Below are positions 25,605 through 42,327 of a DNA stretch of 56,783 bases, in pieces (position 1 is the first letter of the stretch; the number at the start of each line of letters is the position of its first letter). The stretch spans positions 1-56,783 of IMG/VR virus record IMGVR_UViG_3300036833_000338; one strand, given 5' to 3'. Source of the DNA: a virus. Its lineage: Duplodnaviria > Caudoviricetes. The notes beneath the pieces are model-generated. The model was not told the origin of the DNA. It saw only the letters and a list, made by a program, of their open reading frames with translations, and made no database searches. A program made the position numbers and the translations under genes.

Positions 25605-25778
25605 TTATGGAGCAGGCTTCGGGCTCTCCGGCAGCAACCCCTCGCGCTGCATCCGCGCCTTCACCTTCTCGGCGAAGGCGCGAGCCTGTTCAGGCGTCAT
25701 CACGCCCTCGGACGGGTCATCCGGGTCATCGATCCACGGGGCCCACTGCCCTGGCGATGGCTTCTCCTGGGATTCCAT
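25605..25778 (-). CDS. Hypothetical small protein
   Basis: MESQEKPSP... with GAGG RBS, overlapping the portal 3' end. Confidence 0.45.
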   Translation of the reverse strand: MESQEKPSPGQWAPWIDDPDDPSEGVMTPEQARAFAEKVKARMQREGLLPESPKPAP

Positions 25779-28700
25779 TTTTCCTCGCCTCTGCTTGTAG
25801 GGCAGTGGAATAATCGACGTTGGTGCCTTCGGTATCCCGGCCACCCAGTTTCGCATACAGCTCCTTCTCAGGATACCACCAGATCGCCTGCAGATCGGCA
25901 TTGCTGAGATGCGTGCCCTCGGCGGACAGCATTTGCCTGGCATGATCGACGACATCCCGCATCCAAATCCGGTCGCCGCCCGATTTTGGCGTCTCATTGA
26001 TGCCGTCCATGGCGTGGATCATCCGCTCGGCCGACAGTGTCAATTCGGACTTGAGGCGGGTCTTTGCGCGGTATTCAGCGGCATGAGCGGCGTAATCGCG
26101 TTCATGCAAGGCAACGATCGCGTCGGCCTGCGACTTTAGCTCCTCCAGGGTTGGCGGCACCGGCCCGCCGCCTGCGGCGAGGGCTCGCTCAAATCTGCCT
26201 TGGGTCTTGGCAAAGGACGCGGGATCGAGCTGTCCCTTCAGGGAGCCGGCGAGCCGTCCCCAGGCCCGCATGAACCACAGGTCCATCGTGACCGGGTTAT
26301 AATTGCCATTGAGGTTCTGGAAGAATCCACCGCCGATTTTTGGTCCGAAGATCGCCGAGCCGTAAACCGGCGTGTCGACGTTCTCGCCCTGGATCGGATG
26401 ACCATCCGCAGTCAGCTCGCCCGCCGTCCGCTCGGTATTCAGGAATTGCCGCGTTCCTTCCGGCCCCAGTGTATCCAGCAAATTGTTGTACTTTCCGAAA
26501 TTGGAGTTCATCGCGATCTTTTCTTGGGCTTCTATGTTCGTCGGAAACCGGCCGGTCTGCTTGAAGGTTCGGTACGCCTGATCGGCCAATCGCACATTCG
26601 ACGGTACCTTCTCGCCTTGGCTGGTGATCGCCAGTGCGGCGGTATACGCAGTGCGCGCGTGCGGATCGGTGGTCAATTCCGGATGCATCAAGGCAGCGAC
26701 ATCCATCGCCTCCTTGACCTTGCTGGTGTACCAATTGCCCGCGTGACCGGAGCGCGCCGCAGCGTCTTTGATCTCACTGGCAATGACGCGCGACAACAGA
26801 TGATCGGTTCGCGGAGACGGCCCTTGGATGCGACCGCCAGGGACGCCGAGGTTTCTGAGTGCGGCTGAGCCGCGCGCCATCAATTGGTCCGCGATGTCGA
26901 CCACCGTGCGCGAGCGTGGTCTTGCAGCAGGCGTATCACCGTAGAGGATGTCCCGCACCGAGAGCGCGCGTTCGCGCGGGTCGGCGCCGATCGGCGGCTC
27001 TACGCCGGTTTGCGTCCAGGTTGCTTCGCGCCAATGATCGTCAGCGTCTCGCCAGACCTCTCGGAGGTTTCGTCCACCCACCGCTCCGGAATCTTCCGTT
27101 TCGCGGATGACGGCTTCGTAGGCGCGCTGGGCGTCGGCGCGCTGCTCTTCGTCGGTTCCGGTGTCGAGCTTTGTGCCAATGAACTCTCCGTTGCCATGGG
27201 TGACCTTGATCGGCACGTCAGCCGCGACCCGCTCGATCGCCGCGTCGGTTTCGGGATCGCTCGAGTAAATATGAACCTTGGCGCCGCCGGGTGTCGGTTC
27301 CAATGTGTGAAAGGCCAGGCCGCCTTGCAATAGCTGATCGTGGATCTGCGACAGATCGCCCGGCAGCTCAAAGCTCACCATGCTCTCGGGCCCCTTGGGG
27401 TCCGGGTTGAACACCAGCACCGCCTTCTGGTTGGAGACGGCGCCCTTCATCGCGGCTGCCGCGCGGACCATCGCCGGATCGCCGCGCAGCGCGACCATCA
27501 ACGAATTCTCGGCACCGTCCGACCAGGCGCCGATGACGTCGGCTCGATGCGTCTCGCGCAGCCCGAGACCATCGTCGATGATGCGGCTGACCTGGCCCAA
27601 AGCCTTTTGGCGGACGCCACCCAGCTCGGCCTGCGCTTGGGGGAAGGTCAGGTCACGAATATTCGGGGAAGCAAAGGTTTCGGCCGTTCGAACTCTCGGC
27701 GCGGCGCGTTTAACAGGTTCCGCCGCGGCAGGCTCAGGCTTGGCAGGAGTCTCCTTCTTCTCGGGCTCGGAGGGCTCCTCGGCCTCCGGCTCTTCCTTCT
27801 CCGCAGGCTCTTCCTTCTTGGCGCCGGCCTCGCCTTCACCCTTCCGCGCGAATTGCCCGTGCTTGCGGGTGACGTTCTCTTCCTTAAACTCGGCATCCTC
27901 GGCGAACCAATCGGCCAGCCACTTCGCGTCACCGGTCAGTGGGGCTTTTTTTTTTGCTTCCGCTTCCGGGTCGTAGTTGGCGATCGCCTCGGCCAGATCT
28001 TCGAGGAACGCCTGCAGCCGCGCGATATCGTCCGGTGTCAGGTCATCGTTATCCGGCGCCGCGTCACCACCGCCTGCCGCTGCCCTGGCCATTCCGATGC
28101 CGAGTTTGGCGCCATGTTCGATGATGACGTGCTGGACGATTTCCTGCGCGAGCATCACGGCCGCATGCGCCACCGTCCCGGTCGGATCACCGGTCAGCAG
28201 CATCGACCCGCCCGACATCGCCATGCGCAGGCCGAAGGAGCGCAGACCTTTCATCTGCTCCGGGGTCGGCCGGTTGCCGGTCGCCATCGCCTTGAGCCCA
28301 CCGGCCGCATGCATCGCGTGCGTCTTCTCTTCGTGCCAGATGTGTTTCGGCAGATCCTTGGCCATGCCGGCGATCCTGCTCGCCCAGCTCTTGCGGGCCT
28401 CGCCGCCCGGTTTCAGCGCTTCGTGGATGGCCTGAGCCTCGGGCCGCCCGACCTCGCCGATGCGATGGACCACCGCCGCGGCGGCCCGCGCCCCAACGCC
28501 GGGCGTCGCGCTCGGTATATGCTGGTGAACGCCGCCCCCGCCACCGCCCGAGGTAAACCGGCCGTGCGCCTCGCGGCGGTGCTTCGACTCTTCCCATTCG
28601 GCCTGGTCGAAAGGCGCCCGGCTACGATCGCGCTCAGCCTGCAGCCCGTAGATGTACTGAATGATGTTGGACGGTGCGCCACGGGCGATCTCGAGCAAGT

Positions 28701-31137
28701 CGGGATCGAGCGGAACCGGCGCCTCCTGATCGAATGCGATGTCGCCCGCTCGATGCGCCGCCAGGCTCTGCCGGCCGGAGGCCGGGTCGCGGGTCGCGCC
28801 AAACGGCGACGTCACCGATGTGATGGCACCCTGGTGCGGGCCACCGCCCGGCGGCCGCGGCGGCCCGCCCAATGCGGGTTGCCCGGCACCAGCCATCGGC
28901 GGTGCCGGCGGCTCCGCGGGCAGCTCCTCCGGGTCGAGGTCGAGCGCGACATACGGGCTCTCCGGATCGGTCGCCAGGATGCGGCGCACCTCTTGATTCG
29001 TCACCGCGCCCATCTCTTCATACTTCGAATGAATGTCGGCCTTGGTCGCCTGCACCGAGGCTTTGCCGGCCTCGTCCAATTGCCACAGGCTCTTGAAATC
29101 AAACGTAATATCCGGGTCGACCCGGCCCAGGCGCGAGAGCTGGATAAAATCGATGACGCGGGTCAGCGGCTCGCGGAATAACAACTCTTGATAGGCGGCT
29201 ATCCAATCGTAAAAACTTCTGATCTCACCTTCACTACTTGCGTTTAGTCCTGACGGTGTGAGACCCGTATATTTTATTAGCGGTAGTCCACTAATTGAGC
29301 AGTTATGGACGAGTATACCGTTGGCGTACAACTCAGGGAGGTACCCATCGGCAACCTGAAGATTATAGACCGGCTCGCTGGCGTACCTTCCAAGCCGCGG
29401 TGTTGCAACGTTGGCTGCAATAGAGCGCGCGCTCGGGCCAGACGGTCGAATATTCAGCGCCGCAGCTCGCGCAAATCTTGGTAACAGCTGGTCCAAACGT
29501 AGTGAAACCGAGTCGGCCCTCGTTGACATGTTGGCGAATATGGTCGCCGTGCGGGATGCACTCGAAATTGCCGAGCTGATTATGCTCTGTATCTTCGTCG
29601 ATATGATGGACATCGTAGCCGTCAGGGATCGGCCCGTGATGCACAATCCAGATCTGTCGGTGCAGGAGTCCGCCTGCTTTGACGTTACGGTAATAACCCG
29701 ACTTAGTCTTGCCCCACCAATGGCCGCGCCAGAGGACCGGTGGCCCGTACTTGTTGGCCACGTTGGGGCCTCTAATTCGAGGCTGGCCTTTGCGCCGCTG
29801 CACAGCAGGAGATCCCCAGGCCGCACATTCTTCGCACTGACAAACGCGTCGATCGTAGGTAAATAAATCGGGTGGCATGGTGTGACCCAGACTGCTGAGT
29901 GCTCGCTCTTGATAAGGAGCAGTTCAGCAGAATAGCCGGTGCAACCGACCCAGGTCAACGGGGCGAGGCCTTTGCGGGTCATCACCTGATCGGTCAATTC
30001 GAGGCGATCAATCCGAACCTGTCCACGTTGCGTCTCGACCAGCGTGTTGCCAGAAACGCAAATATGTTCCTGCGACTGCGCCTGCAAGGCATCGAGACCG
30101 GCCAGCGGTGTCGAGATATTCTGAAACTCTTCAGTCTCCTTATTGAGGATCAGCAGCGCCCGGTTGTCGCGAAAGAAGTTGTACAGATCGGCCCGGTTCT
30201 GGACGATCTGCTGCCCGCCATTGTTGAGCATGGCGGTCAGATCGGTCAGCATCACGGCGGTCGAGAACGAACGGATCAGATCGGCGACCGAGTCACGCGT
30301 CTGCGTCCACTTGTCGATATAGGTCTTGGCCATCTGCGACAATGGCAGACCGCCAAACATGTACGCCGGCTTGAGCAGGTCCGGCACCTCGCGGCCGACC
30401 AGTGTCAGTAGCCGCGTGGCGTGGATCATCTTGCCCATGACAAACCACGACTGCGGCTTGTACCAGTCGGGGCGCAGTGGATCGGACGCGTTGTAGTCGA
30501 TTGGGTACGTCCATACCGCTTCCACTGTACGCAGCGCCTTCAAGCCGCCTTTGCGGATTTTAGCCTGCGAGATCAGATCCCGGCCATGGCCGATCGGAGT
30601 CTTCAGCTCGTCGGGGGTGTCGGTCGTGCCGAGGTCGATGTAGAGATGCGCCCGGCCAAAGAAGCCATCCTGCTCGGCCAGCCGGCGAAACGCGTCCTGC
30701 ACGCCCAGCCGTTTGATCTCGTCCTCGAGCGCGTTGATTTCGAGGCTCTTGTCCTCGTCGCTGGAGCTTTTGAGCTCGATCCATTCGCGCGTCATCTCGG
30801 TGGCGATGACTTCGCTGAGCCGCCGGTACTCGCCGCGCTGCGCCAACTCGGCCAGCAGCGGATAGCCGAGAAAACTCATGCCGTCGGCGTAATACGCCGC
30901 GAGCAATTGGTCGGCGGCCCAATTGGTCGAATTGCCGACAGCGCTGTCCATCGCCATCGTCGGCGCACCCTCAGGCACCACCCCTGGCATCGGCGCTGAG
31001 GGGGCGAACACCGGCTGCTGCGGCTTGCCGCGCGGGATCTGGCCGCGTTCTCCAGCTTTTTTCAGCGCTGCGGCGAAATCGCCTACCGGGGCGTCAGCAT
31101 CGGTCGGCGGCTGCGCCAGATTGACGACGTCGGCCAT
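25726..31137 (-). CDS. Portal protein (DUF1073-like) with intein and a long C-terminal extension of roughly 1000 aa
   Basis: FLGYPLLAELAQRGEYR...YNASDPLRPDWYKP...LLKPAYMFGG...TPSGLNASSEGEIRSFYDWI; follows terL. Confidence 0.9.
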   Translation of the reverse strand: MADVVNLAQPPTDADAPVGDFAAALKKAGERGQIPRGKPQQPVFAPSAPMPGVVPEGAPTMAMDSAVGNSTNWAADQLLAAYYADGMSFLGYPLLAELAQRGEYRRLSEVIATEMTREWIELKSSSDEDKSLEINALEDEIKRLGVQDAFRRLAEQDGFFGRAHLYIDLGTTDTPDELKTPIGHGRDLISQAKIRKGGLKALRTVEAVWTYPIDYNASDPLRPDWYKPQSWFVMGKMIHATRLLTLVGREVPDLLKPAYMFGGLPLSQMAKTYIDKWTQTRDSVADLIRSFSTAVMLTDLTAMLNNGGQQIVQNRADLYNFFRDNRALLILNKETEEFQNISTPLAGLDALQAQSQEHICVSGNTLVETQRGQVRIDRLELTDQVMTRKGLAPLTWVGCTGYSAELLLIKSEHSAVWVTPCHPIYLPTIDAFVSAKNVRPGDLLLCSGAKASLELEAPTWPTSTGHRSSGAAIGGARLSRVITVTSKQADSCTDRSGLCITGRSLTATMSIISTKIQSIISSAISSASRTATIFANMSTRADSVSLRLDQLLPRFARAAALNIRPSGPSARSIAANVATPRLGRYASEPVYNLQVADGYLPELYANGILVHNCSISGLPLIKYTGLTPSGLNASSEGEIRSFYDWIAAYQELLFREPLTRVIDFIQLSRLGRVDPDITFDFKSLWQLDEAGKASVQATKADIHSKYEEMGAVTNQEVRRILATDPESPYVALDLDPEELPAEPPAPPMAGAGQPALGGPPRPPGGGPHQGAITSVTSPFGATRDPASGRQSLAAHRAGDIAFDQEAPVPLDPDLLEIARGAPSNIIQYIYGLQAERDRSRAPFDQAEWEESKHRREAHGRFTSGGGGGGVHQHIPSATPGVGARAAAAVVHRIGEVGRPEAQAIHEALKPGGEARKSWASRIAGMAKDLPKHIWHEEKTHAMHAAGGLKAMATGNRPTPEQMKGLRSFGLRMAMSGGSMLLTGDPTGTVAHAAVMLAQEIVQHVIIEHGAKLGIGMARAAAGGGDAAPDNDDLTPDDIARLQAFLEDLAEAIANYDPEAEAKKKAPLTGDAKWLADWFAEDAEFKEENVTRKHGQFARKGEGEAGAKKEEPAEKEEPEAEEPSEPEKKETPAKPEPAAAEPVKRAAPRVRTAETFASPNIRDLTFPQAQAELGGVRQKALGQVSRIIDDGLGLRETHRADVIGAWSDGAENSLMVALRGDPAMVRAAAAMKGAVSNQKAVLVFNPDPKGPESMVSFELPGDLSQIHDQLLQGGLAFHTLEPTPGGAKVHIYSSDPETDAAIERVAADVPIKVTHGNGEFIGTKLDTGTDEEQRADAQRAYEAVIRETEDSGAVGGRNLREVWRDADDHWREATWTQTGVEPPIGADPRERALSVRDILYGDTPAARPRSRTVVDIADQLMARGSAALRNLGVPGGRIQGPSPRTDHLLSRVIASEIKDAAARSGHAGNWYTSKVKEAMDVAALMHPELTTDPHARTAYTAALAITSQGEKVPSNVRLADQAYRTFKQTGRFPTNIEAQEKIAMNSNFGKYNNLLDTLGPEGTRQFLNTERTAGELTADGHPIQGENVDTPVYGSAIFGPKIGGGFFQNLNGNYNPVTMDLWFMRAWGRLAGSLKGQLDPASFAKTQGRFERALAAGGGPVPPTLEELKSQADAIVALHERDYAAHAAEYRAKTRLKSELTLSAERMIHAMDGINETPKSGGDRIWMRDVVDHARQMLSAEGTHLSNADLQAIWWYPEKELYAKLGGRDTEGTNVDYSTALQAEARKNGIPGEAIARAVGPVDR
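29302..30060 (-). mobile_element. Intein in portal (253 aa)
   Basis: EHI/CVSGNTLVETQRG (block A), VTPCHP (block B), VYNLQV (block F), YANGILVHN/C (block G). Confidence 0.92.
29363..29761 (-). CDS. HNH endonuclease with Zn finger, nested out of frame in the portal intein
   Basis: LLHRQIWIVHHGPIPDGYDVHHIDEDTEHNQLGNFECIPHGDH; CASCG...YCSQRC; GAGG-N7-GTG start (ORF open to 29878). Confidence 0.88.
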   Translation of the reverse strand: MANKYGPPVLWRGHWWGKTKSGYYRNVKAGGLLHRQIWIVHHGPIPDGYDVHHIDEDTEHNQLGNFECIPHGDHIRQHVNEGRLGFTTFGPAVTKICASCGAEYSTVWPERALYCSQRCNTAAWKVRQRAGL

Positions 31138-31141
31138 GAGA

Positions 31142-33346
31142 TCAGCGCCGCAGCGTGTGGACCATCGGCAGCCCGGGGCGCGGCTGCAGCATCGATTTTG
31201 TTACAATAACTGGCAGGGGACCGGGTTCGACCAGCAGGTCCGTCAATGCCCACACCAGCGCGTCGACTCTGTCCGGTGACCCGTCGCGGGCCCGGTCATA
31301 GTCGATCGTAAACGAGCATTGCTGATCTTCGAGCTGGGGAAAATTTCCCACGTGGTGGATTCTCCCCTGCTCGTAGAGGGCGCTAACCGGCTCGGCGCGG
31401 ATCGCCTTGCCGCGCGAGGCATGCACTGGCGTATAGGCGATGTCCGGGTCGACCATCCTGATCGTGTTCTCGACCATTTCGCCTCCGTTGTTGATCTCGG
31501 CGACGATGCGGTCAGCCTTGCGCTGCGGGTGCTTGTATTGGGCTATTGCTGCCCGCGCCCACTCGGTCGGCTGGTAGTGCCCTGAAACGTCTGCGAGCAC
31601 ATAGCCATGCCCCGCCCAGTCGCAGGCGGCGACGACGATGCCGGTTTCATCCGCCTCCTCACCGCTGGTTGCGGCCGGATCGACGGCACAGACAATCCGC
31701 TTGAAGGCAGGCAGCGGTTGCCCGTAAGGCCAGCGGTCGCGATCGATCCCCTCGCGTGTCCACAGCGCCCCTGGCACGTCCTCGAGGAGCTCGCCGCCGA
31801 TCTCCTGGCGACCGAGGCGGGTGCCCTCGTAGCGGGCGACGATGCGGTCGAAGAAGGTCGGCGCGAGGTTGGCGCGGTTCTCGTAGCTGGAGCCGCGGGT
31901 GATGACGGTCATCGGATCGGCGAGCAGCTCGCGCAGAAGCTTCGTCGGACGCGGCGTCGCGGTCACCATGACTCGTGGATCGGGTCCCAGCCGCAACCCA
32001 AACATCAGCATGTCCCACGCCTCGGGGTATTTCCAGACCGACAACTCGTCGCAGTTGTGGACTAAAACTCCATTGGCGAAATATTCAGGGGAGCGCTCGA
32101 CAGTGAGATTAAAGACGCGAGCCTCGCCTTCTGGCTCCCAAGTTGACACAACGCTGACTACAGAAATTTCCTTGCCTCGACCTGAACGATCTCCCGCAAT
32201 ATTCACAGGCTCGGTCTGTCGTGCGGGCTTCCTCGGCTCGCTTTTGTTGACATCGCAAACATACCGGATCCCGGGCGTCTTTGCGCTGCTTTCGAATGAC
32301 TTCGACCCCACAGTCGCCGCAGCATAAGCGAATTTCTGGTTTGAGAGACCAATCGACAGGAGCAATTGGCTTTTCAGCGACGTGAAGCTTTCGATGATCA
32401 CTCTTCGATAAAAGCTCCAAGTCATCTGGGTTGGTCGTAGCCAGATCTTCGACCCGATGATGCACATCAAATCCCGGAGGAATTTCTCCGTGGGCCGCTC
32501 TCCATACGGCCCGATGTAAGCGGTCTCTGTCGACTCGCCCGAGTGACCTCGTGCCGCGATATTCGAAATACCCCGGTTGTCCGCGAGCCCGGTATCGGTG
32601 CCACCGCCGTCCACCCCACTCGACGCACTCGTTACACATGCCGCCCCTCGCGACAGGTCGGAAAGCCTCATCCAACCATGCGATGATAGTACGGGGTGCT
32701 CGGCCGTTCCAGTCAGATGCCTGCCATCAGCAAAGCGAACGGTCCCCACTTTTTCTGCTCGCGAAGCGACTCGGATCACGGCGTGTAGCCCGCTTCTTGT
32801 TACCACGAGATCGCCTGCTTTGATCGCTTCGATCGGGATCTCGCCGTGATCCGTGAGGATCGTCGTGCCGGCGACAAAACACCACGATCCATCGTGCTGC
32901 GGCCCGCGCAGGCGATCGGGCTCCTCAGCGCTATAGAGCGTGGCGACGGCGCCGTTGGGCCAGGTCAGGCGGCGCTTCGAGGGCTCATAGAGCGGCCGCT
33001 CGGAATTCGGCGAGACGGCCAGGATGCCGGATTGCCCCTCGACGATGACGTCACGGATATCGGCTGCGGTCGGGGCGACCAGCGCGAGCCGACGGCGCCC
33101 TCGCTTGACTTGCTCGCGCGTCCATTCGGCCCCTGAGCGCGTCTTTCCGTACCCGCGACCGGCAAGCAATAGCCACACCCGCCAATCGCCCGGCGGTGCC
33201 AGCTGCGAGGGTCGCGCCTGCCGATGCCAATCAAAATGGACAGCATCAGTGTTTCGTGTCTCCTGTAGTATTTCCGCTGCGTCTATCGCTTCCAGCAATG
33301 CCTGCAGCGAGCTTCGCGTCGGCGATCCACTGTGCAAGCTCAGCAT
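31142..33346 (-). CDS. terL: Terminase large subunit with intein
   Basis: Walker A AGRGYGKT, Walker B W/CDE split by the intein, VTATP, nuclease VDPA...DETGI...PDRVDALVWA. Confidence 0.95.
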   Translation of the reverse strand: MLSLHSGSPTRSSLQALLEAIDAAEILQETRNTDAVHFDWHRQARPSQLAPPGDWRVWLLLAGRGYGKTRSGAEWTREQVKRGRRRLALVAPTAADIRDVIVEGQSGILAVSPNSERPLYEPSKRRLTWPNGAVATLYSAEEPDRLRGPQHDGSWCFVAGTTILTDHGEIPIEAIKAGDLVVTRSGLHAVIRVASRAEKVGTVRFADGRHLTGTAEHPVLSSHGWMRLSDLSRGAACVTSASSGVDGGGTDTGLADNRGISNIAARGHSGESTETAYIGPYGERPTEKFLRDLMCIIGSKIWLRPTQMTWSFYRRVIIESFTSLKSQLLLSIGLSNQKFAYAAATVGSKSFESSAKTPGIRYVCDVNKSEPRKPARQTEPVNIAGDRSGRGKEISVVSVVSTWEPEGEARVFNLTVERSPEYFANGVLVHNCDELSVWKYPEAWDMLMFGLRLGPDPRVMVTATPRPTKLLRELLADPMTVITRGSSYENRANLAPTFFDRIVARYEGTRLGRQEIGGELLEDVPGALWTREGIDRDRWPYGQPLPAFKRIVCAVDPAATSGEEADETGIVVAACDWAGHGYVLADVSGHYQPTEWARAAIAQYKHPQRKADRIVAEINNGGEMVENTIRMVDPDIAYTPVHASRGKAIRAEPVSALYEQGRIHHVGNFPQLEDQQCSFTIDYDRARDGSPDRVDALVWALTDLLVEPGPLPVIVTKSMLQPRPGLPMVHTLRR
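32054..32881 (-). mobile_element. Intein in TerL (276 aa), inserted at Walker B
   Basis: GSW/CFVAGTTILTDHG, GTAEHP, VFNLTV, YFANGVLVHN/CDE. Confidence 0.93.
32109..32639 (-). CDS. HNH endonuclease with Zn fingers, nested out of frame in the TerL intein
   Basis: RLHRAVWRAAHGEIPPGFDVHHRVEDLATTNPDDLELLSKSDH; CGDCG, CLRC, CEYCG...FCSQRC; GAGGGG RBS before MCNEC (ORF open to 32675). Confidence 0.88.
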   Translation of the reverse strand: MCNECVEWGGRRWHRYRARGQPGYFEYRGTRSLGRVDRDRLHRAVWRAAHGEIPPGFDVHHRVEDLATTNPDDLELLSKSDHRKLHVAEKPIAPVDWSLKPEIRLCCGDCGVEVIRKQRKDARDPVCLRCQQKRAEEARTTDRACEYCGRSFRSRQGNFCSQRCVNLGARRRGSRL

Positions 33347-40226: not shown

Positions 40227-41996
40227 TCATGCCGCACCCATGATGCGCTCGAGGATCCAGCGTATGACCGGCACCGCCATCGAATTGCCGAGCGCCCGGT
40301 AGCGCGGCCCGTCCGCCGCCGGCTTGCCGCGATACGAGATCGCGGTCCAGCCCGGCGGAAATCCCTGGAGTTTTTCGCATTCGACCGGCGTCAGCCGCCG
40401 CACCGCCATCTGCTGTACATAGCTGCGGCTCGATCCGCCGCTCGCGGACCGGATGTTCGCGATCTCGTCCAACTCAGGCATGGAACCGCCTTCACGGCCC
40501 CGCAGATTGAAGGCAACCGCCGTCGCCCGGTTCGCCGTCAGGGTCGGCCGATCGCCTTTGATGGCTTGGTTGGAATAATTCGATTGGAAGGCGATGGCCT
40601 GGGTGTGGCCATCGGTGTCGAGCACGTTGGCCTGGTCGCCGTAGATGCACACATCGGATTGGCGGGCGTCGAAGGCGATGGCGTGCTGATCGCGGCCTGT
40701 CAGGGTGAATTGTGGATCGCCAACTTCTCCTATTCCAAGGCCGTTCTGCTTCTTGTTGCGATCCAGGGTTCCTTGAATGGGGATAATCGCCACCAGCGGC
40801 GTGCCGCGCCCGGTGCCGTCTTCGCTGGCGTCGAAGCCCTCGGCGCGAAGGGCGTGGGTGACGATCATCTCCGACCCGTTCCCGGCGTTGCCGTTGCCGC
40901 CGACCGCCGCCTGCAGGGTCGGCGCGAGGTCGCCCGAACGCCCGCAGGCGATGAAGGTCTCAGTCTCGAAATCCTGTCGCCCGTGCGGCCCGCCGTGGGC
41001 ATTGACCGCCTCGATCGGCCCGGACTGGCGGTTGCCGCCGTAGGCGACGGCGTTATTCGCGCGAGCCCGTAGCGAGGGCTGACATCCCTCGACGATGTTG
41101 AGGCCCGAGCGCTCGGCCGCATTTCCCGCCGCACCTTCGCCGCTGCGGTCCAACGCATCGCTGCCGATGCCGTAGCCGTGAGCGCCGACGCTGAGGGTCG
41201 GGGCAACCTGCGCGATCAGTCCGCCGTCGCACTCGAAGTCGGTGCCGAGCCCGCCGCCTGCCGTAGCGCGGCTGCTAAGGCTGGGGGCAACATCGGCAAT
41301 GCCGTGATGCTTGCCACTCTGCAGCGTGAACATCGGGTCGCCAAGCTCGCCGATGCCTATTCCGGCGCGCGGATCGTCGGTCGAGACGCCTGTTCGAGCA
41401 CCGACTTCAAGGATCGGGGCAACTCCTTCCCCCGCTTTTCTGCCCGGCGCAGGATTCCCGTGCAGGCTTTCGGGCTCAAAAAGTACCGCTGCGGCAGGTC
41501 GCCAGTCTCCAAGATGGCCGACAACGAACAGGCGACGCCGTCGCTGGGGTACTCCGAAATATTGAGCGTCAAGCGTCCGGTAGGCCCACCCGTACCCGCA
41601 TTGCTCCACTGCCCCGAGAAAGGTGCCAAAGTCCCGTCCCTCGTCGGAAGACAGGAGGCCGGGCACGTTCTCGAAAAGAAACCAACGGGGGCGCAGGCGC
41701 TCAACCAGACGAAGGGCGACGAGGGCCAGGTTGCCGCGCGGGTCGTCCAGCCCGAGGCGCTTCCCGGCGACCGAAAAGGACTGGCAGGGCGATCCGAAGA
41801 CGACGACGTCCACAGGCTCAACTGCGTCGGCATCGATCCGCTCCACGTCGCCGAGGTTGGGGATGCCGGGGAAACGGGCGCGGTGCACAGCACTGGCGAA
41901 CGGGTCGATCTCCGCGCACCACCGCCAGTCGATTGCCGCACATGCCGCCTCCGGCGCCCCGATCCCTGAAAAAAGAGTACCCCCGGAAAGTCTCAT
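40227..41996 (-). CDS. C5 cytosine DNA methyltransferase (alpha chain) with long variable region
   Basis: LFSGIG (I), GSPCQSFS (IV), ENVPG (VI), QRRRRLF (VIII), RRLTPVECEKLQGFP, RYRALGNS (X). Confidence 0.93.
   Translation of the reverse strand: MRLSGGTLFSGIGAPEAACAAIDWRWCAEIDPFASAVHRARFPGIPNLGDVERIDADAVEPVDVVVFGSPCQSFSVAGKRLGLDDPRGNLALVALRLVERLRPRWFLFENVPGLLSSDEGRDFGTFLGAVEQCGYGWAYRTLDAQYFGVPQRRRRLFVVGHLGDWRPAAAVLFEPESLHGNPAPGRKAGEGVAPILEVGARTGVSTDDPRAGIGIGELGDPMFTLQSGKHHGIADVAPSLSSRATAGGGLGTDFECDGGLIAQVAPTLSVGAHGYGIGSDALDRSGEGAAGNAAERSGLNIVEGCQPSLRARANNAVAYGGNRQSGPIEAVNAHGGPHGRQDFETETFIACGRSGDLAPTLQAAVGGNGNAGNGSEMIVTHALRAEGFDASEDGTGRGTPLVAIIPIQGTLDRNKKQNGLGIGEVGDPQFTLTGRDQHAIAFDARQSDVCIYGDQANVLDTDGHTQAIAFQSNYSNQAIKGDRPTLTANRATAVAFNLRGREGGSMPELDEIANIRSASGGSSRSYVQQMAVRRLTPVECEKLQGFPPGWTAISYRGKPAADGPRYRALGNSMAVPVIRWILERIMGAA
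41357..41833 (-). CDS. Alternative-frame ORF inside the MTase, resembling an M.EcoHK31I-type beta polypeptide
   Basis: CSLSAILETGDLPQRYFLSPKACTGILRRAEKRGKELP; ORF open to 41941. Confidence 0.7.
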   Translation of the reverse strand: MPTQLSLWTSSSSDRPASPFRSPGSASGWTTRAATWPSSPFVWLSACAPVGFFSRTCPASCLPTRDGTLAPFSGQWSNAGTGGPTGRLTLNISEYPSDGVACSLSAILETGDLPQRYFLSPKACTGILRRAEKRGKELPRSLKSVLEQASRPTIRAPE

Positions 41997-42102
41997 GATC
42001 GTTTGATTCCGATCCAGGCTTCGTGTACATCGGACTCGAGCGGCGGCGGCGGCGCGGTCAGCCGGAAGGGCGGCGTTCGGCTCGACCAGTGTGCGGCGGC
42101 GC

Positions 42103-42327
42103 TCATGCCTTCCTTGCACGCTTGCGAAAATCATAGATCGCGCTATCCAGCGCGCGCCACGCGTCGCCAACCGCATCCTGGTCGTGAGCGCCGGCTTGCT
42201 CAGCCTGCATGACATCCTGAAAGTGCTCAGCAGCTTTAGCGAGGTATTCCCCGAATTCGATCGCAAAATCCTTATCGGTTCGGCCGAGATGCTCGGTCGT
42301 TGATTCAGGTAGCTTCTGCACGCTCAC
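42103..42327 (-). CDS. Hypothetical protein
   Basis: RTDKDFAIEFGEYLA...AIYDFRKRA; coupled to the upstream gene. Confidence 0.6.
   Translation of the reverse strand: MSVQKLPESTTEHLGRTDKDFAIEFGEYLAKAAEHFQDVMQAEQAGAHDQDAVGDAWRALDSAIYDFRKRARKA

What the first reader, a model, noticed from the sequence alone, without database searches (positions are those of the whole stretch)
29302..32881. Dual-coding inteins: the homing endonuclease is a separate gene in the -1 frame, twice, with the same design
Seen: both inteins (portal 29302-30060, TerL 32054-32881) have intact splicing blocks. Their central regions read as S/T/I/A-rich filler with no LAGLIDADG or HNH motif, yet stay stop-free. The -1 frame of each encodes a clear HNH plus Cys-finger protein with its own SD and start codon. 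Both nested ORFs stop at the equivalent nucleotide, the TAA spanning the codons of block F (V-F-N, TTT AAT; V-Y-N, TAT AAT). Established: intein endonucleases are normally in frame with the splicing domain. Inference: this is a class of mobile element in which splicing and homing are translated separately from one sequence, so the nuclease can be dosed or timed independently of an essential late protein. The shared frame and stop in two divergent inteins at different host genes argues against accident. I cannot exclude published precedent.
Basis: partly seen in the sequence, partly recalled or inferred. Interest (0 to 1): 0.92.

Follow-up and report, generated by a model that had tools for sequence, protein, structure and literature searches.

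The report
Two inteins with overlapping HNH genes
Two neighbouring phage packaging genes each carry a self-splicing protein insert whose middle also encodes, one base out of step, a separate DNA-cutting enzyme that probably spreads the insert; this is real, but it belongs to a large family of a kind already in print.

Summary
The portal gene (25726-31137, minus strand) and the TerL gene (31142-33346, minus strand) each hold a class-1 intein. Each intein encloses a complete HNH_3 plus zinc-ribbon ORF in the +2 (-1) frame, and the host frame stays open through it.

It is neither chance nor an assembly error.
- Among relatives of the nuclease, 96 of 173 places show the same layout, 3 use the other shifted frame and 1 is in frame.
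- Conservation, synonymous changes and a confident fold lie in the HNH frame. The host frame there is unconserved, low-confidence filler.
- An independent assembly of the reads shows no indels.
- Intein-less alleles of related phages lie in the same soil samples.

The shared frame has a simple cause. It is the stop-poor frame of these genes, with about 2.5 expected stops against about 17 in the other shifted frame.

The kind is already published: the brucellaphage terL intein with an out-of-frame HNH (2015), actinophage inteins (2025 preprint) and the cyanobacterial dnaX intein (2026 preprint). This scan has also noted it before on other DNA, in 31 findings from at least 30 genomes.

New here: two such inteins in one phage, a portal-hosted form (six more found), and an atypical catalytic core in the TerL copy. 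Separate translation and homing are inferred, not shown.

The parts
25726..31137 (-). Portal gene (1803 aa precursor with a long C-terminal extension), host of intein 1
   Evidence: ORF. Pfam Phage_portal_3 at E 4.2e-73.
29302..30060 (-). Portal intein, 253 aa, class 1. It starts with C1, carries T..H in block B, ends in HN and is followed by a +1 Cys.
   Evidence: Sequence. Hint_2 at E 2.6e-6, 28.3 bits, just under the 28.4 gathering cut-off. Boundaries set. Intein-less relatives read QEHI|CSISG across the site.
29363..29878 (-). Nested HNH_3 plus zinc-ribbon ORF in the +2 frame: 171 aa, ATG at 29878, TAA at 29363-29365
   Evidence: HNH_3 at E 2.6e-10 and phrog_15471 at E 1.9e-17. The N-terminus from the ATG aligns with relatives L319-L326, and L319 and L322 have an ATG at the same place.
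31142..33346 (-). Large terminase gene (734 aa precursor), host of intein 2
   Evidence: Terminase_6N and Terminase_6C hits.
32054..32881 (-). TerL intein, 276 aa, class 1, inserted in Walker B (HDGSW | CDE)
   Evidence: Hint_2 at E 2.1e-9 (above gathering) and Intein_splicing at E 1.7e-8, 34.9 bits, just under the 35.8 cut-off. In the AF2 model the splicing domain has pLDDT 96-98 and the middle 40-71. The top Foldseek match is the gp41-1 mini-intein at E 9.6e-7. Intein-less relatives read HDAAW|CDE.
32109..32639 (-). Nested HNH_3 plus zinc-ribbon ORF in the +2 frame: 176 aa from the ATG at 32639 (a TTG at 32675 is an alternative start), TAA at 32109-32111
   Evidence: HNH_3 at E 5.6e-9 and phrog_15471 at E 3.8e-18. 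AF2 mean pLDDT 91.0. The best Foldseek row is I-HmuI at E 1e-2. The catalytic core is atypical.
32644..32649 (-). GAGGGG, a Shine-Dalgarno-like motif 4 nt upstream of the ATG at 32639
   Evidence: Upstream sequence printed.
32727..32729 (-). Last stop in the HNH frame upstream of the TerL-nested ORF; it closes that frame 29 codons before the ATG
29924..29926 (-). Last stop in the HNH frame upstream of the portal-nested ORF, 15 codons before the ATG

Best explanation
The portal and TerL precursors each carry a class-1 intein, and splicing restores the essential host protein. The middle of each intein, where canonical inteins hold an in-frame endonuclease domain, is instead a complete I-HmuI-like HNH_3 plus zinc-ribbon gene read in the +2 frame.

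How the two frames are used:
- The host ribosome reads through this stretch as an unconserved, probably disordered linker. The only demand on it is to carry no stop and not to hinder splicing.
- The nuclease is made separately, by internal initiation at its own start codon (inferred).
- It probably cuts intein-less alleles of the same gene in co-infecting relatives, so that repair copies the whole unit in, that is, homing (inferred).

Origin and frame:
- The layout most likely arose when a free-standing HNH gene entered a mini-intein.
- It persists in this frame because the frame one base after the HNH frame is the stop-poor one.

The two window copies:
- They belong to different sub-lineages and were acquired independently.
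- The TerL copy has an unusual catalytic core and may be weakened or inactive.
For: Shown in the window:
- Both frames are open, the nested ORFs hit HNH_3 and the host frame hits intein families.
- C1, the block B histidine and the terminal Asn are invariant in 67 aligned inteins.
- The nested TerL HNH model has mean pLDDT 91.0. In the host-frame model residues 1-85 and 240-276 score 96-98 and residues 90-238 score 40-71.

Shown in the family:
- Of 173 HNH places, 96 are nested with the HNH in host frame +2, 3 in host frame +1, 63 have no host ORF running through them (free-standing by that test), 7 are ambiguous and 4 are long ORFs.
- All 99 nested hosts hit the N-intein model and 98 of 99 the C-intein model.
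- Of 65 host ORFs, 57 hit Pfam Intein_splicing, 33 Terminase_6N and 24 Terminase_3.

Selection:
- In 71 non-redundant clusters the host frame has 0 stops against 175.7 expected from synonymous shuffles.
- For the same nucleotides, 2485 of 2485 pairs are alike by blastp in the HNH frame and 269 of 2485 in the host frame.
- In 11 close pairs, differences by HNH codon position 1/2/3 are 498/413/902. Synonymous to non-synonymous codon differences are 568:641 in the HNH frame and 185:1074 in the host frame.

Own start:
- All 71 clusters have a start codon between the upstream stop and the start of HNH homology. It is ATG in 66 of 71, and 35 of 71 have an SD-like motif.

Mobility:
- 78 of 80 closest TerL relatives and 67 of 70 closest portal relatives have no insert at the site.
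- L217 carries a mini-intein at the same TerL site. Its HNH core is deleted and remnants remain in the +2 frame.
- Contigs in two soil runs join across exactly the 828 nt of the TerL intein. One contig runs from the portal N-extein straight into the C-extein.
- The seven-row HNH clade that holds the TerL copy (support 97) is all nested. Six of its seven members sit at the same W|CDE site; L006 reads Q|...|SDL.

No assembly error: Logan contigs cover both inteins with 0 differences and no indels.
Against: - No expression, splicing or cleavage data exist for these copies or, as far as I found, for this family.
- Only 35 of 71 clusters have an SD-like motif. The portal ATG at 29878 has no clear one.
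- The promoter scan found 1 site against 1.4 expected by chance.
- The TerL-nested HNH is alone among 67 aligned sequences at four near-invariant core positions: V63, T68, T69 and D73, where 65 of 67 have N at the last. It may not cut.
- The portal host frame being open is not significant on its own (P about 0.11).
- The Foldseek match to I-HmuI is weak (E 1e-2, no row at or below 1e-3).
- X1 may be the sample the record was assembled from, so the read check is an independent assembly, not an independent sample.
Confidence: 0.8

Rival explanations
1. The nuclease is made by programmed -1 ribosomal frameshifting from the host frame. The product would be an N-extein plus N-intein plus HNH fusion, not a separately initiated protein.
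For: - The HNH frame is the -1 frame of the host.
- It opens just after the N-terminal splicing blocks: 44-50 codons after intein residue 1 in the window and 67-94 in most relatives.
Against: - No X XXY YYZ heptamer lies between the upstream stop and the HNH homology in either window intein. Only 10 of 71 clusters have one, at no fixed place.
- All 71 clusters have a start codon there, ATG in 66 of 71, often within 10 codons of the upstream stop and at profile positions 1-4.
- 3 of 99 nested cases in the first survey use the other shifted frame, as does brucellaphage Tb. A -1 shift cannot serve these.
Confidence: 0.06
2. One or both nested ORFs in this phage are relics. The ORF is still open, but the nuclease no longer works and the intein persists only because exact loss is rare.
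For: - The TerL copy differs at four near-invariant core positions, uniquely among 67 sequences.
- A relative (L217) has already lost the HNH core by an in-frame deletion, as the homing cycle predicts.
Against: - Both ORFs are full length.
- The invariant residues H42, H60, H61 and H82 and the aligned zinc cysteines are kept in the TerL copy.
- The portal copy has the family's commonest residue at most core positions checked, and at the rest (H68, F74) one that a few other members share.
- The TerL model folds with pLDDT 91.
- Empty target alleles are present in the same samples.
Confidence: 0.25
3. The layout is an artefact: compensating sequencing or assembly frameshifts hide an ordinary in-frame HNH intein, or GC-rich DNA gives an open alternative frame by chance.
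For: - The window is about 62% G+C and is full of long spurious ORFs.
- The portal host frame would stay open in 11% of synonymous shuffles.
Against: - The same layout occurs in 96 of 173 places across bacteria, archaea and phages, down to 31% G+C. Expected host-frame stops there reach 4-6 and none is observed.
- Logan contigs of the runs show no indels over either intein.
- An in-frame reading would need two compensating shifts in each of two inteins.
- Only 1 of 173 places (L160) is truly in frame.
Confidence: 0.02
4. The nested HNH proteins serve the phage, for example as terminase-associated HNH packaging factors, and do not home.
For: - HNH proteins beside terminase genes are known packaging components (Kala et al. 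2014, as cited in PMC4422536).
- 57 of 65 hosts are terminases.
Against: - The same nuclease family sits in portal inteins at two sites.
- It is absent from 78 of 80 and 67 of 70 closest relatives, which package DNA without it.
- Its lineages follow insertion sites.
- L217 lost the HNH core and kept the intein.
Confidence: 0.07

Closest known systems
Brucellaphage Tb/Pr (Perisivirus) terL intein with a nested out-of-frame HNH (GenBank JN939331 ORF07/ORF08; Virol J 2015, PMC4422536)
   Same: - A large-terminase intein whose middle holds a complete, separately annotated HNH ORF out of frame, with the host frame open.
- My N- and C-intein models hit it at E 2e-15 and 9e-14.
   Different: - The Tb nuclease is Pfam HNH (PF01844), with zinc ribbons before the catalytic core. 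It is not HNH_3.
- It lies in the +1 frame, not +2.
- Tb has one such intein and none in its portal.
Non-canonical actinobacteriophage inteins with an endonuclease VII-like endonuclease in 'frame 3' (Gosselin, Arsenault, Gogarten, bioRxiv 10.1101/2025.01.02.630785)
   Same: [quoted passage not shown]
- The in-frame reading is unstructured.
- The proposed origin is invasion of an intein by a free-standing endonuclease (sections 8, 15 and 28 read).
   Different: - Their nuclease is called endonuclease VII-like (IPR004211). Ours hit only HNH_3 in Pfam at E up to 0.01.
- Their non-canonical endonucleases sit in DNA polymerase, minor capsid, TerL and thymidylate synthase, not in portal.
- They call the layout rare, whereas here it is the majority state of the nuclease's relatives.
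- I could not see their supplementary tables.
Cyanobacterial dnaX intein with a LAGLIDADG endonuclease in an overlapping frame (Gorbalenya 1998 as cited; Phillips et al., bioRxiv 10.64898/2026.09.14.751524)
   Same: - Splicing and homing functions are encoded in separate overlapping frames.
- Purifying selection acts in the nuclease frame, and the host-frame reading is disordered (outline and passages read).
   Different: - The nuclease is LAGLIDADG, not HNH.
- The host is a cellular replication gene, not a phage packaging gene.
ShiLan domain: an out-of-frame HNH inside a mycobacteriophage DNA methylase (Genes 2025, PMC11855218)
   Same: - An HNH flanked by zinc fingers lies in the third frame of an open host frame.
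- Its TAA stop lies at the very end of the insert (abstract and passages read).
   Different: - No splicing domain was detectable there, so the insert stays in the host protein.
- Here full intein blocks flank the nuclease gene.
Fractured genes: split inteins with a free-standing endonuclease gene between the halves (Dassa et al. 2009, PMC2677866; search listing and citations in the 2025 preprint only)
   Same: [quoted passage not shown]
- 20 of the 74 non-nested relatives have both intein halves flanking the HNH with the host frame broken or shifted.
   Different: - In the window the host frame is continuous, so the inteins are contiguous, not split.
- The nuclease family in the 2009 paper is, as cited, Vsr-like.
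I-HmuI, the HNH homing endonuclease of Bacillus phage SPO1 (PDB 1u3e)
   Same: It is the best structural match of the nested TerL protein model (Foldseek probability 1.00, 119 columns). It is also an elongated HNH nuclease with extra DNA-binding modules.
   Different: - I-HmuI is intron-encoded.
- The match is weak (E 1e-2, TM 0.36, 17% identity).
- A sequence profile search of the PDB found no nuclease at all.

Membership tests
Class-1 intein (Hint fold) | Cys or Ser at position 1 and T-x-x-H in block B | tested here: met
   Both window inteins start with C. C1 and H62 are invariant and T59 nearly invariant in 67 aligned inteins.
Class-1 intein (Hint fold) | C-terminal His-Asn followed by Cys, Ser or Thr as the first C-extein residue | tested here: met
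   VHN|C in both window inteins. The terminal N is invariant. The +1 Cys is native in intein-less relatives.
Class-1 intein (Hint fold) | Hint fold of the splicing domain | tested here: met
   Tested for the TerL intein only: pLDDT is 96-98 for residues 1-85 and 240-276, and the top Foldseek hits are mini-inteins (6qaz at E 9.6e-7, TM by target 0.82). The portal intein was not folded.
Class-1 intein (Hint fold) | Protein splicing activity | not testable with these tools
   It needs expression of the precursor and detection of the ligated exteins.
HNH_3 / His-Me finger nuclease (PF13392) | Profile match above Pfam's gathering score | tested here: met
   40.2 and 35.9 bits against a cut-off of 24.8.
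HNH_3 / His-Me finger nuclease (PF13392) | Conserved catalytic core (HH ... N ... N ... H ... H) | tested here: inconclusive
   The portal copy fits the family pattern, with H68 and F74 as minority residues. The TerL copy keeps H60, H61, H82 and H86. It has V63, T68, T69 and D73 where 57, 54, 63 and 65 of 67 sequences have D, N, N and N.
Inteins with an out-of-frame, same-strand homing endonuclease gene | A complete nuclease ORF between the splicing blocks in another frame, with the host frame open through it | tested here: met
Inteins with an out-of-frame, same-strand homing endonuclease gene | Purifying selection in the nuclease frame and not in the host frame | tested here: met
   Tested at family level. 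For the window copies themselves only one pair was compared (TerL against L005).
Inteins with an out-of-frame, same-strand homing endonuclease gene | Separate translation of the nuclease | not testable with these tools
   Start codons and SD-like motifs were counted. No RNA or protein data are available.
Actinophage 'endonuclease VII-like, frame 3' inteins (Gosselin et al. 2025) | The nuclease belongs to the endonuclease VII family (IPR004211 / PF02945) | tested here: not met
   Only HNH_3 was reported by Pfam at E up to 0.01 for both nested proteins.
Split intein / fractured gene | The host gene is broken into two ORFs, each carrying one intein half | tested here: not met
   Both host ORFs are continuous.
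-1 programmed ribosomal frameshift cassette | A slippery X XXY YYZ heptamer upstream of the new-frame coding part | tested here: not met
   None was found in either window intein (rows WIN_1362 and WIN_4123).

The most novel reading that the evidence does not exclude
The HNH_3 inteins are not a rare oddity. They are the main natural state of this nuclease family, and they may be a living intermediate in intein evolution.

The proposed path is this:
- A free-standing HNH gene lands in a mini-intein. It survives only in the one frame that costs few stops.
- It is then translated on its own, possibly earlier than the late packaging genes.
- From that state it can decay to a mini-intein (L217), break the host into a split intein (20 flanked cases), or slip into frame (L160).

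The portal-hosted forms, at two sites, would then show the same unit jumping between packaging genes.
Probability: 0.35. Interest if true: 0.55.

Novelty: new member of a known kind. Interest (0 to 1): 0.33.

Why it matters
Annotation:
- Pipelines usually call only the long host ORF. The nuclease that drives these inteins is then missed, and the inteins are taken for mini-inteins with a long linker.

For the intein field:
- The papers I read call out-of-frame endonucleases rare.
- Here that layout is the majority state among relatives of one HNH family. It reaches phages of many bacterial phyla and archaeal genome bins.
- The data also give a simple reason for the frame bias.
- They support the view that inteins gain nucleases by capturing free-standing genes, with mini-intein, split and in-frame outcomes all visible in one family.

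For this phage:
- Two essential packaging proteins depend on splicing.
- Intein-less alleles of related phages lie in the same soil samples. That makes it a natural setting in which to test homing.

Tried and rejected
- Sequencing or assembly error: rejected (and the family survey).
- Chance open frames in GC-rich DNA: rejected for the family and for the TerL copy. The portal copy is not significant on its own.
- Frameshift expression: no slippery site in the window.
- Own promoter: one sigma-70-like site (29958-29929, minus strand, about 50 nt upstream of the portal-nested ATG), against 1.4 expected by chance. This is not evidence.
- Close relatives of the portal-nested HNH by exact peptide words: none. 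An alignment-seeded scan then found them.
- PDB by sequence profile: only zinc-finger noise (RNF8, polyhomeotic), no nuclease.
- The GTG at 29761, proposed as the start in another first-reader note: less likely. Homology with L319-L326 runs from the ATG at 29878, and L319 and L322 have an ATG at the same place.
- Recent duplication between the two window inteins: rejected. Identity is 19% in the host frame and 31% in the HNH frame.
- The nested ORF in the cytosine methylase (41357-41941): I read its translation only, and it shows no HNH-like motif by eye. No family search was run.
- No RNA holder was listed for the stretch, so nothing can be said on expression.
- The 4 'long in-frame?' places: only L160 proved to be an in-frame intein. 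The other three had no intein halves.
- Limits of the counts: the survey counts include near-identical contigs and the six seed sequences. The non-redundant figure is 71 clusters. The second survey overlaps the first in some contigs and used a simpler test for nesting.
- Supplementary tables of the 2025 preprint were not seen. They may list phages that bear on whether HNH_3 forms were already catalogued.
- Searches behind 'not found in print' for portal-hosted or HNH_3 frame-3 forms. For the last two only the listings were read.

Full report
**What is in the window.**
- The window is a whole IMG/VR virus record: linear, 56,783 bases, with a CheckV completeness estimate of 82%. Sequencing runs label the source as soil metagenome.
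- On the minus strand lie a portal gene (25726-31137) and a large-terminase gene (31142-33346).
- Both inteins begin with Cys, have T..H in block B, end in His-Asn and are followed by Cys.
- The TerL intein splits Walker B (HDGSW | CDE). Intein-less relatives read HDAAW-CDE without a break. Intein-less portal relatives read QEHI-CSISG.

**The nested genes.**
- In the +2 (= -1) frame each intein holds a complete ORF. The portal one is 29363-29878 (171 aa). The TerL one is 32109-32639 from an ATG preceded by GAGGGG (176 aa; a TTG at 32675 is an alternative start).
- Both exceed Pfam's gathering score for HNH_3. Both match phrog_15471, annotated as an HNH endonuclease, at E about 1e-17 to 1e-18.
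- Across each intein the host frame has no stop. The HNH frame is open only over the HNH gene. The third frame has 13-14 stops over the stretch scanned, about 6-10 of them inside each intein.

**Which frame carries the information.**
- An AlphaFold2 model of the TerL-nested protein, built with 67 aligned relatives, has mean pLDDT 91.0 and no segment below 50.
- The best Foldseek row for this model is the HNH homing endonuclease I-HmuI. The match is weak (E 1e-2).
- The same DNA read in the host frame gives a model whose splicing domain (residues 1-85 and 240-276) scores 96-98. The 150 residues between score 40-71.
- The splicing domain matches solved mini-inteins (gp41-1 at E 9.6e-7).
- The filler is 50% and 62% Ser, Thr, Ala, Gly, Pro and Arg in the two window inteins.

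**It is a family, not a coincidence.**
- A tblastn search of phage records with the TerL-nested protein hit inside the annotated terL of four unrelated phages: Tetrasphaera TJE1, Acinetobacter Highwayman, a Rhodobacteraceae phage and Clostridium phiCDHM19. In all four the hit lies in the +2 frame.
- I scanned IMG/VR and one genome per prokaryote species with an alignment of the six nucleases. This gave 173 HNH places in 163 loci plus the window:
  - 96 are nested in a long ORF with the HNH in host frame +2.
  - 3 are nested in host frame +1.
  - 63 have no host ORF running through the HNH region.
  - 7 are ambiguous.
  - 4 are long ORFs.
- All 99 nested hosts hit an N-intein model built from the six seeds, and 98 of 99 hit the C-intein model.
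- Boundaries could be set for 96 inteins, which collapse to 71 clusters at 90% nucleotide identity.
- Of 65 host ORFs scanned, 57 hit Intein_splicing, 33 Terminase_6N and 24 Terminase_3. Three further long hosts also carry an ordinary in-frame LAGLIDADG intein upstream.
- Record titles name hosts from many bacterial phyla and from archaeal bins: Halobacteriales, Thermoplasmatales and Nitrosotalea.

**Selection.**
- For the 71 clusters I shuffled synonymous codons within each HNH ORF. This predicts 175.7 host-frame stops in all, and none is observed. The median chance of a stop-free host frame is 0.044.
- For the window, TerL has 3.67 expected stops and 0 of 500 stop-free shuffles. The portal has 1.73 expected stops and 11% stop-free shuffles.
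- For the same nucleotides, 2485 of 2485 pairs are significantly alike in the HNH frame. Only 269 of 2485 are alike in the host frame, always with lower scores among the 40 best listed.
- In 11 close pairs, differences by HNH codon position 1/2/3 are 498, 413 and 902. Changed codons are synonymous to non-synonymous 568:641 in the HNH frame and 185:1074 in the host frame.

**Why always this frame.**
- The third frame of these Lys-, Arg-, Asp-, Glu- and Asn-rich genes carries 1131 stops in the 71 clusters, about 16-17 per gene (expected 1209). The frame the host uses would carry about 2.5 per gene.
- In 29 homologues with no intein half nearby, the two frames carry 5.4 and 14.1 stops on average.
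- A gene that lands in an intein can therefore be read through cheaply in only one frame. This explains the shared frame without any design.
- A further point is inference only. The HNH third codon position is the host second position, so synonymous changes in the nuclease can tune the character of the linker.
- The stop position is not fixed. It lies 2-31 codons before the intein end. The commonest place is the one seen in the window (20 codons, 17 of 71), and the next is at L-T-V-E (16 codons, 12 of 71).
- Conserved block F codons (Tyr or Phe ending in T, then Asp or Asn) read as TGA or TAA in this frame. That makes this a natural place to stop.

**How the nuclease is probably made.**
- All 71 clusters have a start codon between the last upstream stop in the HNH frame and the start of homology. 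It is ATG in 66, and 35 have an SD-like motif at a proper distance.
- Slippery heptamers occur in 10 of 71, at no fixed place, and in neither window intein. I therefore favour internal initiation over frameshifting. This is inferred.
- For the portal copy, homology with its closest relatives runs from the ATG at 29878, and two of those relatives have an ATG at the same place. The GTG at 29761 proposed in another note is thus less likely.

**Mobility.**
- Of the 80 closest TerL relatives in IMG/VR (54-77% identity), 78 have no insert at the site, one is incomplete and one (L217) has a 528-nt insert.
- L217 carries a mini-intein closely related to the window's. Its +2 frame still reads the first and last parts of the nuclease with the catalytic core deleted.
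- Of the 70 closest portal relatives, 67 have no insert and 3 are incomplete.
- I laid Logan contigs of two soil runs on the region:
  - Both inteins are reproduced with 0 differences and no indels.
  - A contig in each run (depth 26 and 8.3) joins 32051 to 32892 with 12 other letters between. The net loss is the 828 nt of the intein, so this is an intein-less allele of a related phage.
  - One contig matches the portal N-extein up to the intein start and then runs on into letters that translate as the C-extein start.
  - X1 may be the source sample. This is therefore an independent assembly, not an independent sample. X2 comes from another study and holds three short pieces identical to the TerL intein.
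- The TerL-nested nuclease sits in an all-nested clade of seven (support 97). Six of the seven are inserted at W|CDE; L006 reads Q|...|SDL.

**The portal form.**
- An alignment led by the portal nuclease found eight close relatives (38-53% identity), all nested in the +2 frame.
- Six are in portal genes. Three sit at the window's site and three at a second site about 20 residues downstream (GLNA | SSEGEI). Two are in terL.
- In that second survey of 80 loci, 56 were nested in frame +2, 3 in frame +1 and 21 were not nested.

**A continuum.**
- The 74 non-nested places sort as follows:
  - 49 have no intein half within reach.
  - 4 have one half.
  - 21 are flanked by both halves.
- Of those 21, one (L160) has the halves and the HNH_3 all in one frame, which makes it a canonical intein.
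- The other 20 have a broken or shifted host frame, as in split inteins with a free-standing nuclease gene.
- On a quick tree of 116 nucleases, nested and non-nested forms are interspersed. At least 13 changes are needed, and 6 are forced by well-supported branches.

**A caveat for this copy.**
- The TerL-nested protein is alone among 67 aligned sequences at four near-invariant core positions (V63, T68, T69, D73). It keeps the invariant histidines and cysteines.
- It may be weakened or inactive. The portal copy has the family's commonest residue at most core positions checked, and at the rest a residue that a few other members share.

**What is known.**
- GenBank JN939331 annotates ORF07 as 'intein present' with ORF08, an HNH, inside it. 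I checked that this nuclease is Pfam HNH (PF01844) in the +1 frame.
- A 2025 preprint reports actinophage inteins with an endonuclease VII-like nuclease in frame 3 and proposes capture of free-standing genes.
- A 2025 paper reports a third-frame HNH in a methylase without an intein.
- A 2026 preprint treats the dnaX intein.
- This scan has 31 earlier findings of the same layout in at least 30 genomes.
- My four literature searches found no paper describing portal-hosted forms or the breadth of the HNH_3 form. For the last two searches I read only the listings. Supplements were closed.

**Verdict.**
- The window adds two members of a known kind, one of them in a host gene not yet reported for this layout.
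- Separate translation, splicing and homing remain to be shown.

Noticed in passing
L217:1228-1758 (IMG/VR contig, a relative of the window's TerL): A 176-aa mini-intein sits at the same Walker-B site. Its +2 frame keeps the first and last parts of the HNH gene with the catalytic core deleted in frame. It looks like a decay stage of the same element.
   Followed up: partly
L022, L040, L104, L107, L113, L120, L128-L130, L140, L143, L146, L147, L150, L161 and others (20 places): HNH_3 genes are flanked by an N-intein half and a C-intein half, with the host frame broken or the halves in different frames. These may be split inteins with a free-standing nuclease gene, or broken genes. Most are in Bacillota genome bins.
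   Followed up: partly
L160:2674-3586: This is the only relative in which the intein halves and the HNH_3 lie in one frame (Pfam Intein_splicing at E 5.8e-27 and HNH_3 at E 3.5e-12 on one protein). It is a canonical in-frame version of the same unit, in an Actinomycetota bin.
   Followed up: partly
L048, L084, L157, L098: These host ORFs carry two inteins: an upstream one with an ordinary in-frame LAGLIDADG domain, and a downstream one with the out-of-frame HNH.
   Followed up: no
window 25726-29301 (minus strand): The portal precursor runs on for about 1190 residues after the intein, far beyond the Phage_portal_3 match. The nature of this long C-terminal extension was not examined.
   Followed up: no
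window 41357-41941 (minus strand): Another first-reader note reads the alternative-frame ORF inside the cytosine methylase gene (40227-42266) as a nested gene. By eye its translation is Ser-, Pro-, Thr- and Arg-rich with no HNH-like motif. No family search was run.
   Followed up: partly
window 29929-29958 (minus strand): A sigma-70-like hexamer pair (TTGACC, 18 nt, TATTCT) lies about 50 nt upstream of the portal-nested ATG. It is the only such site in 4.7 kb, against 1.4 expected by chance.
   Followed up: no
L090-L094 (Selenomonadales genome bins): Two or three HNH_3 genes of this family lie in tandem within a few kilobases, with no intein halves nearby.
   Followed up: no
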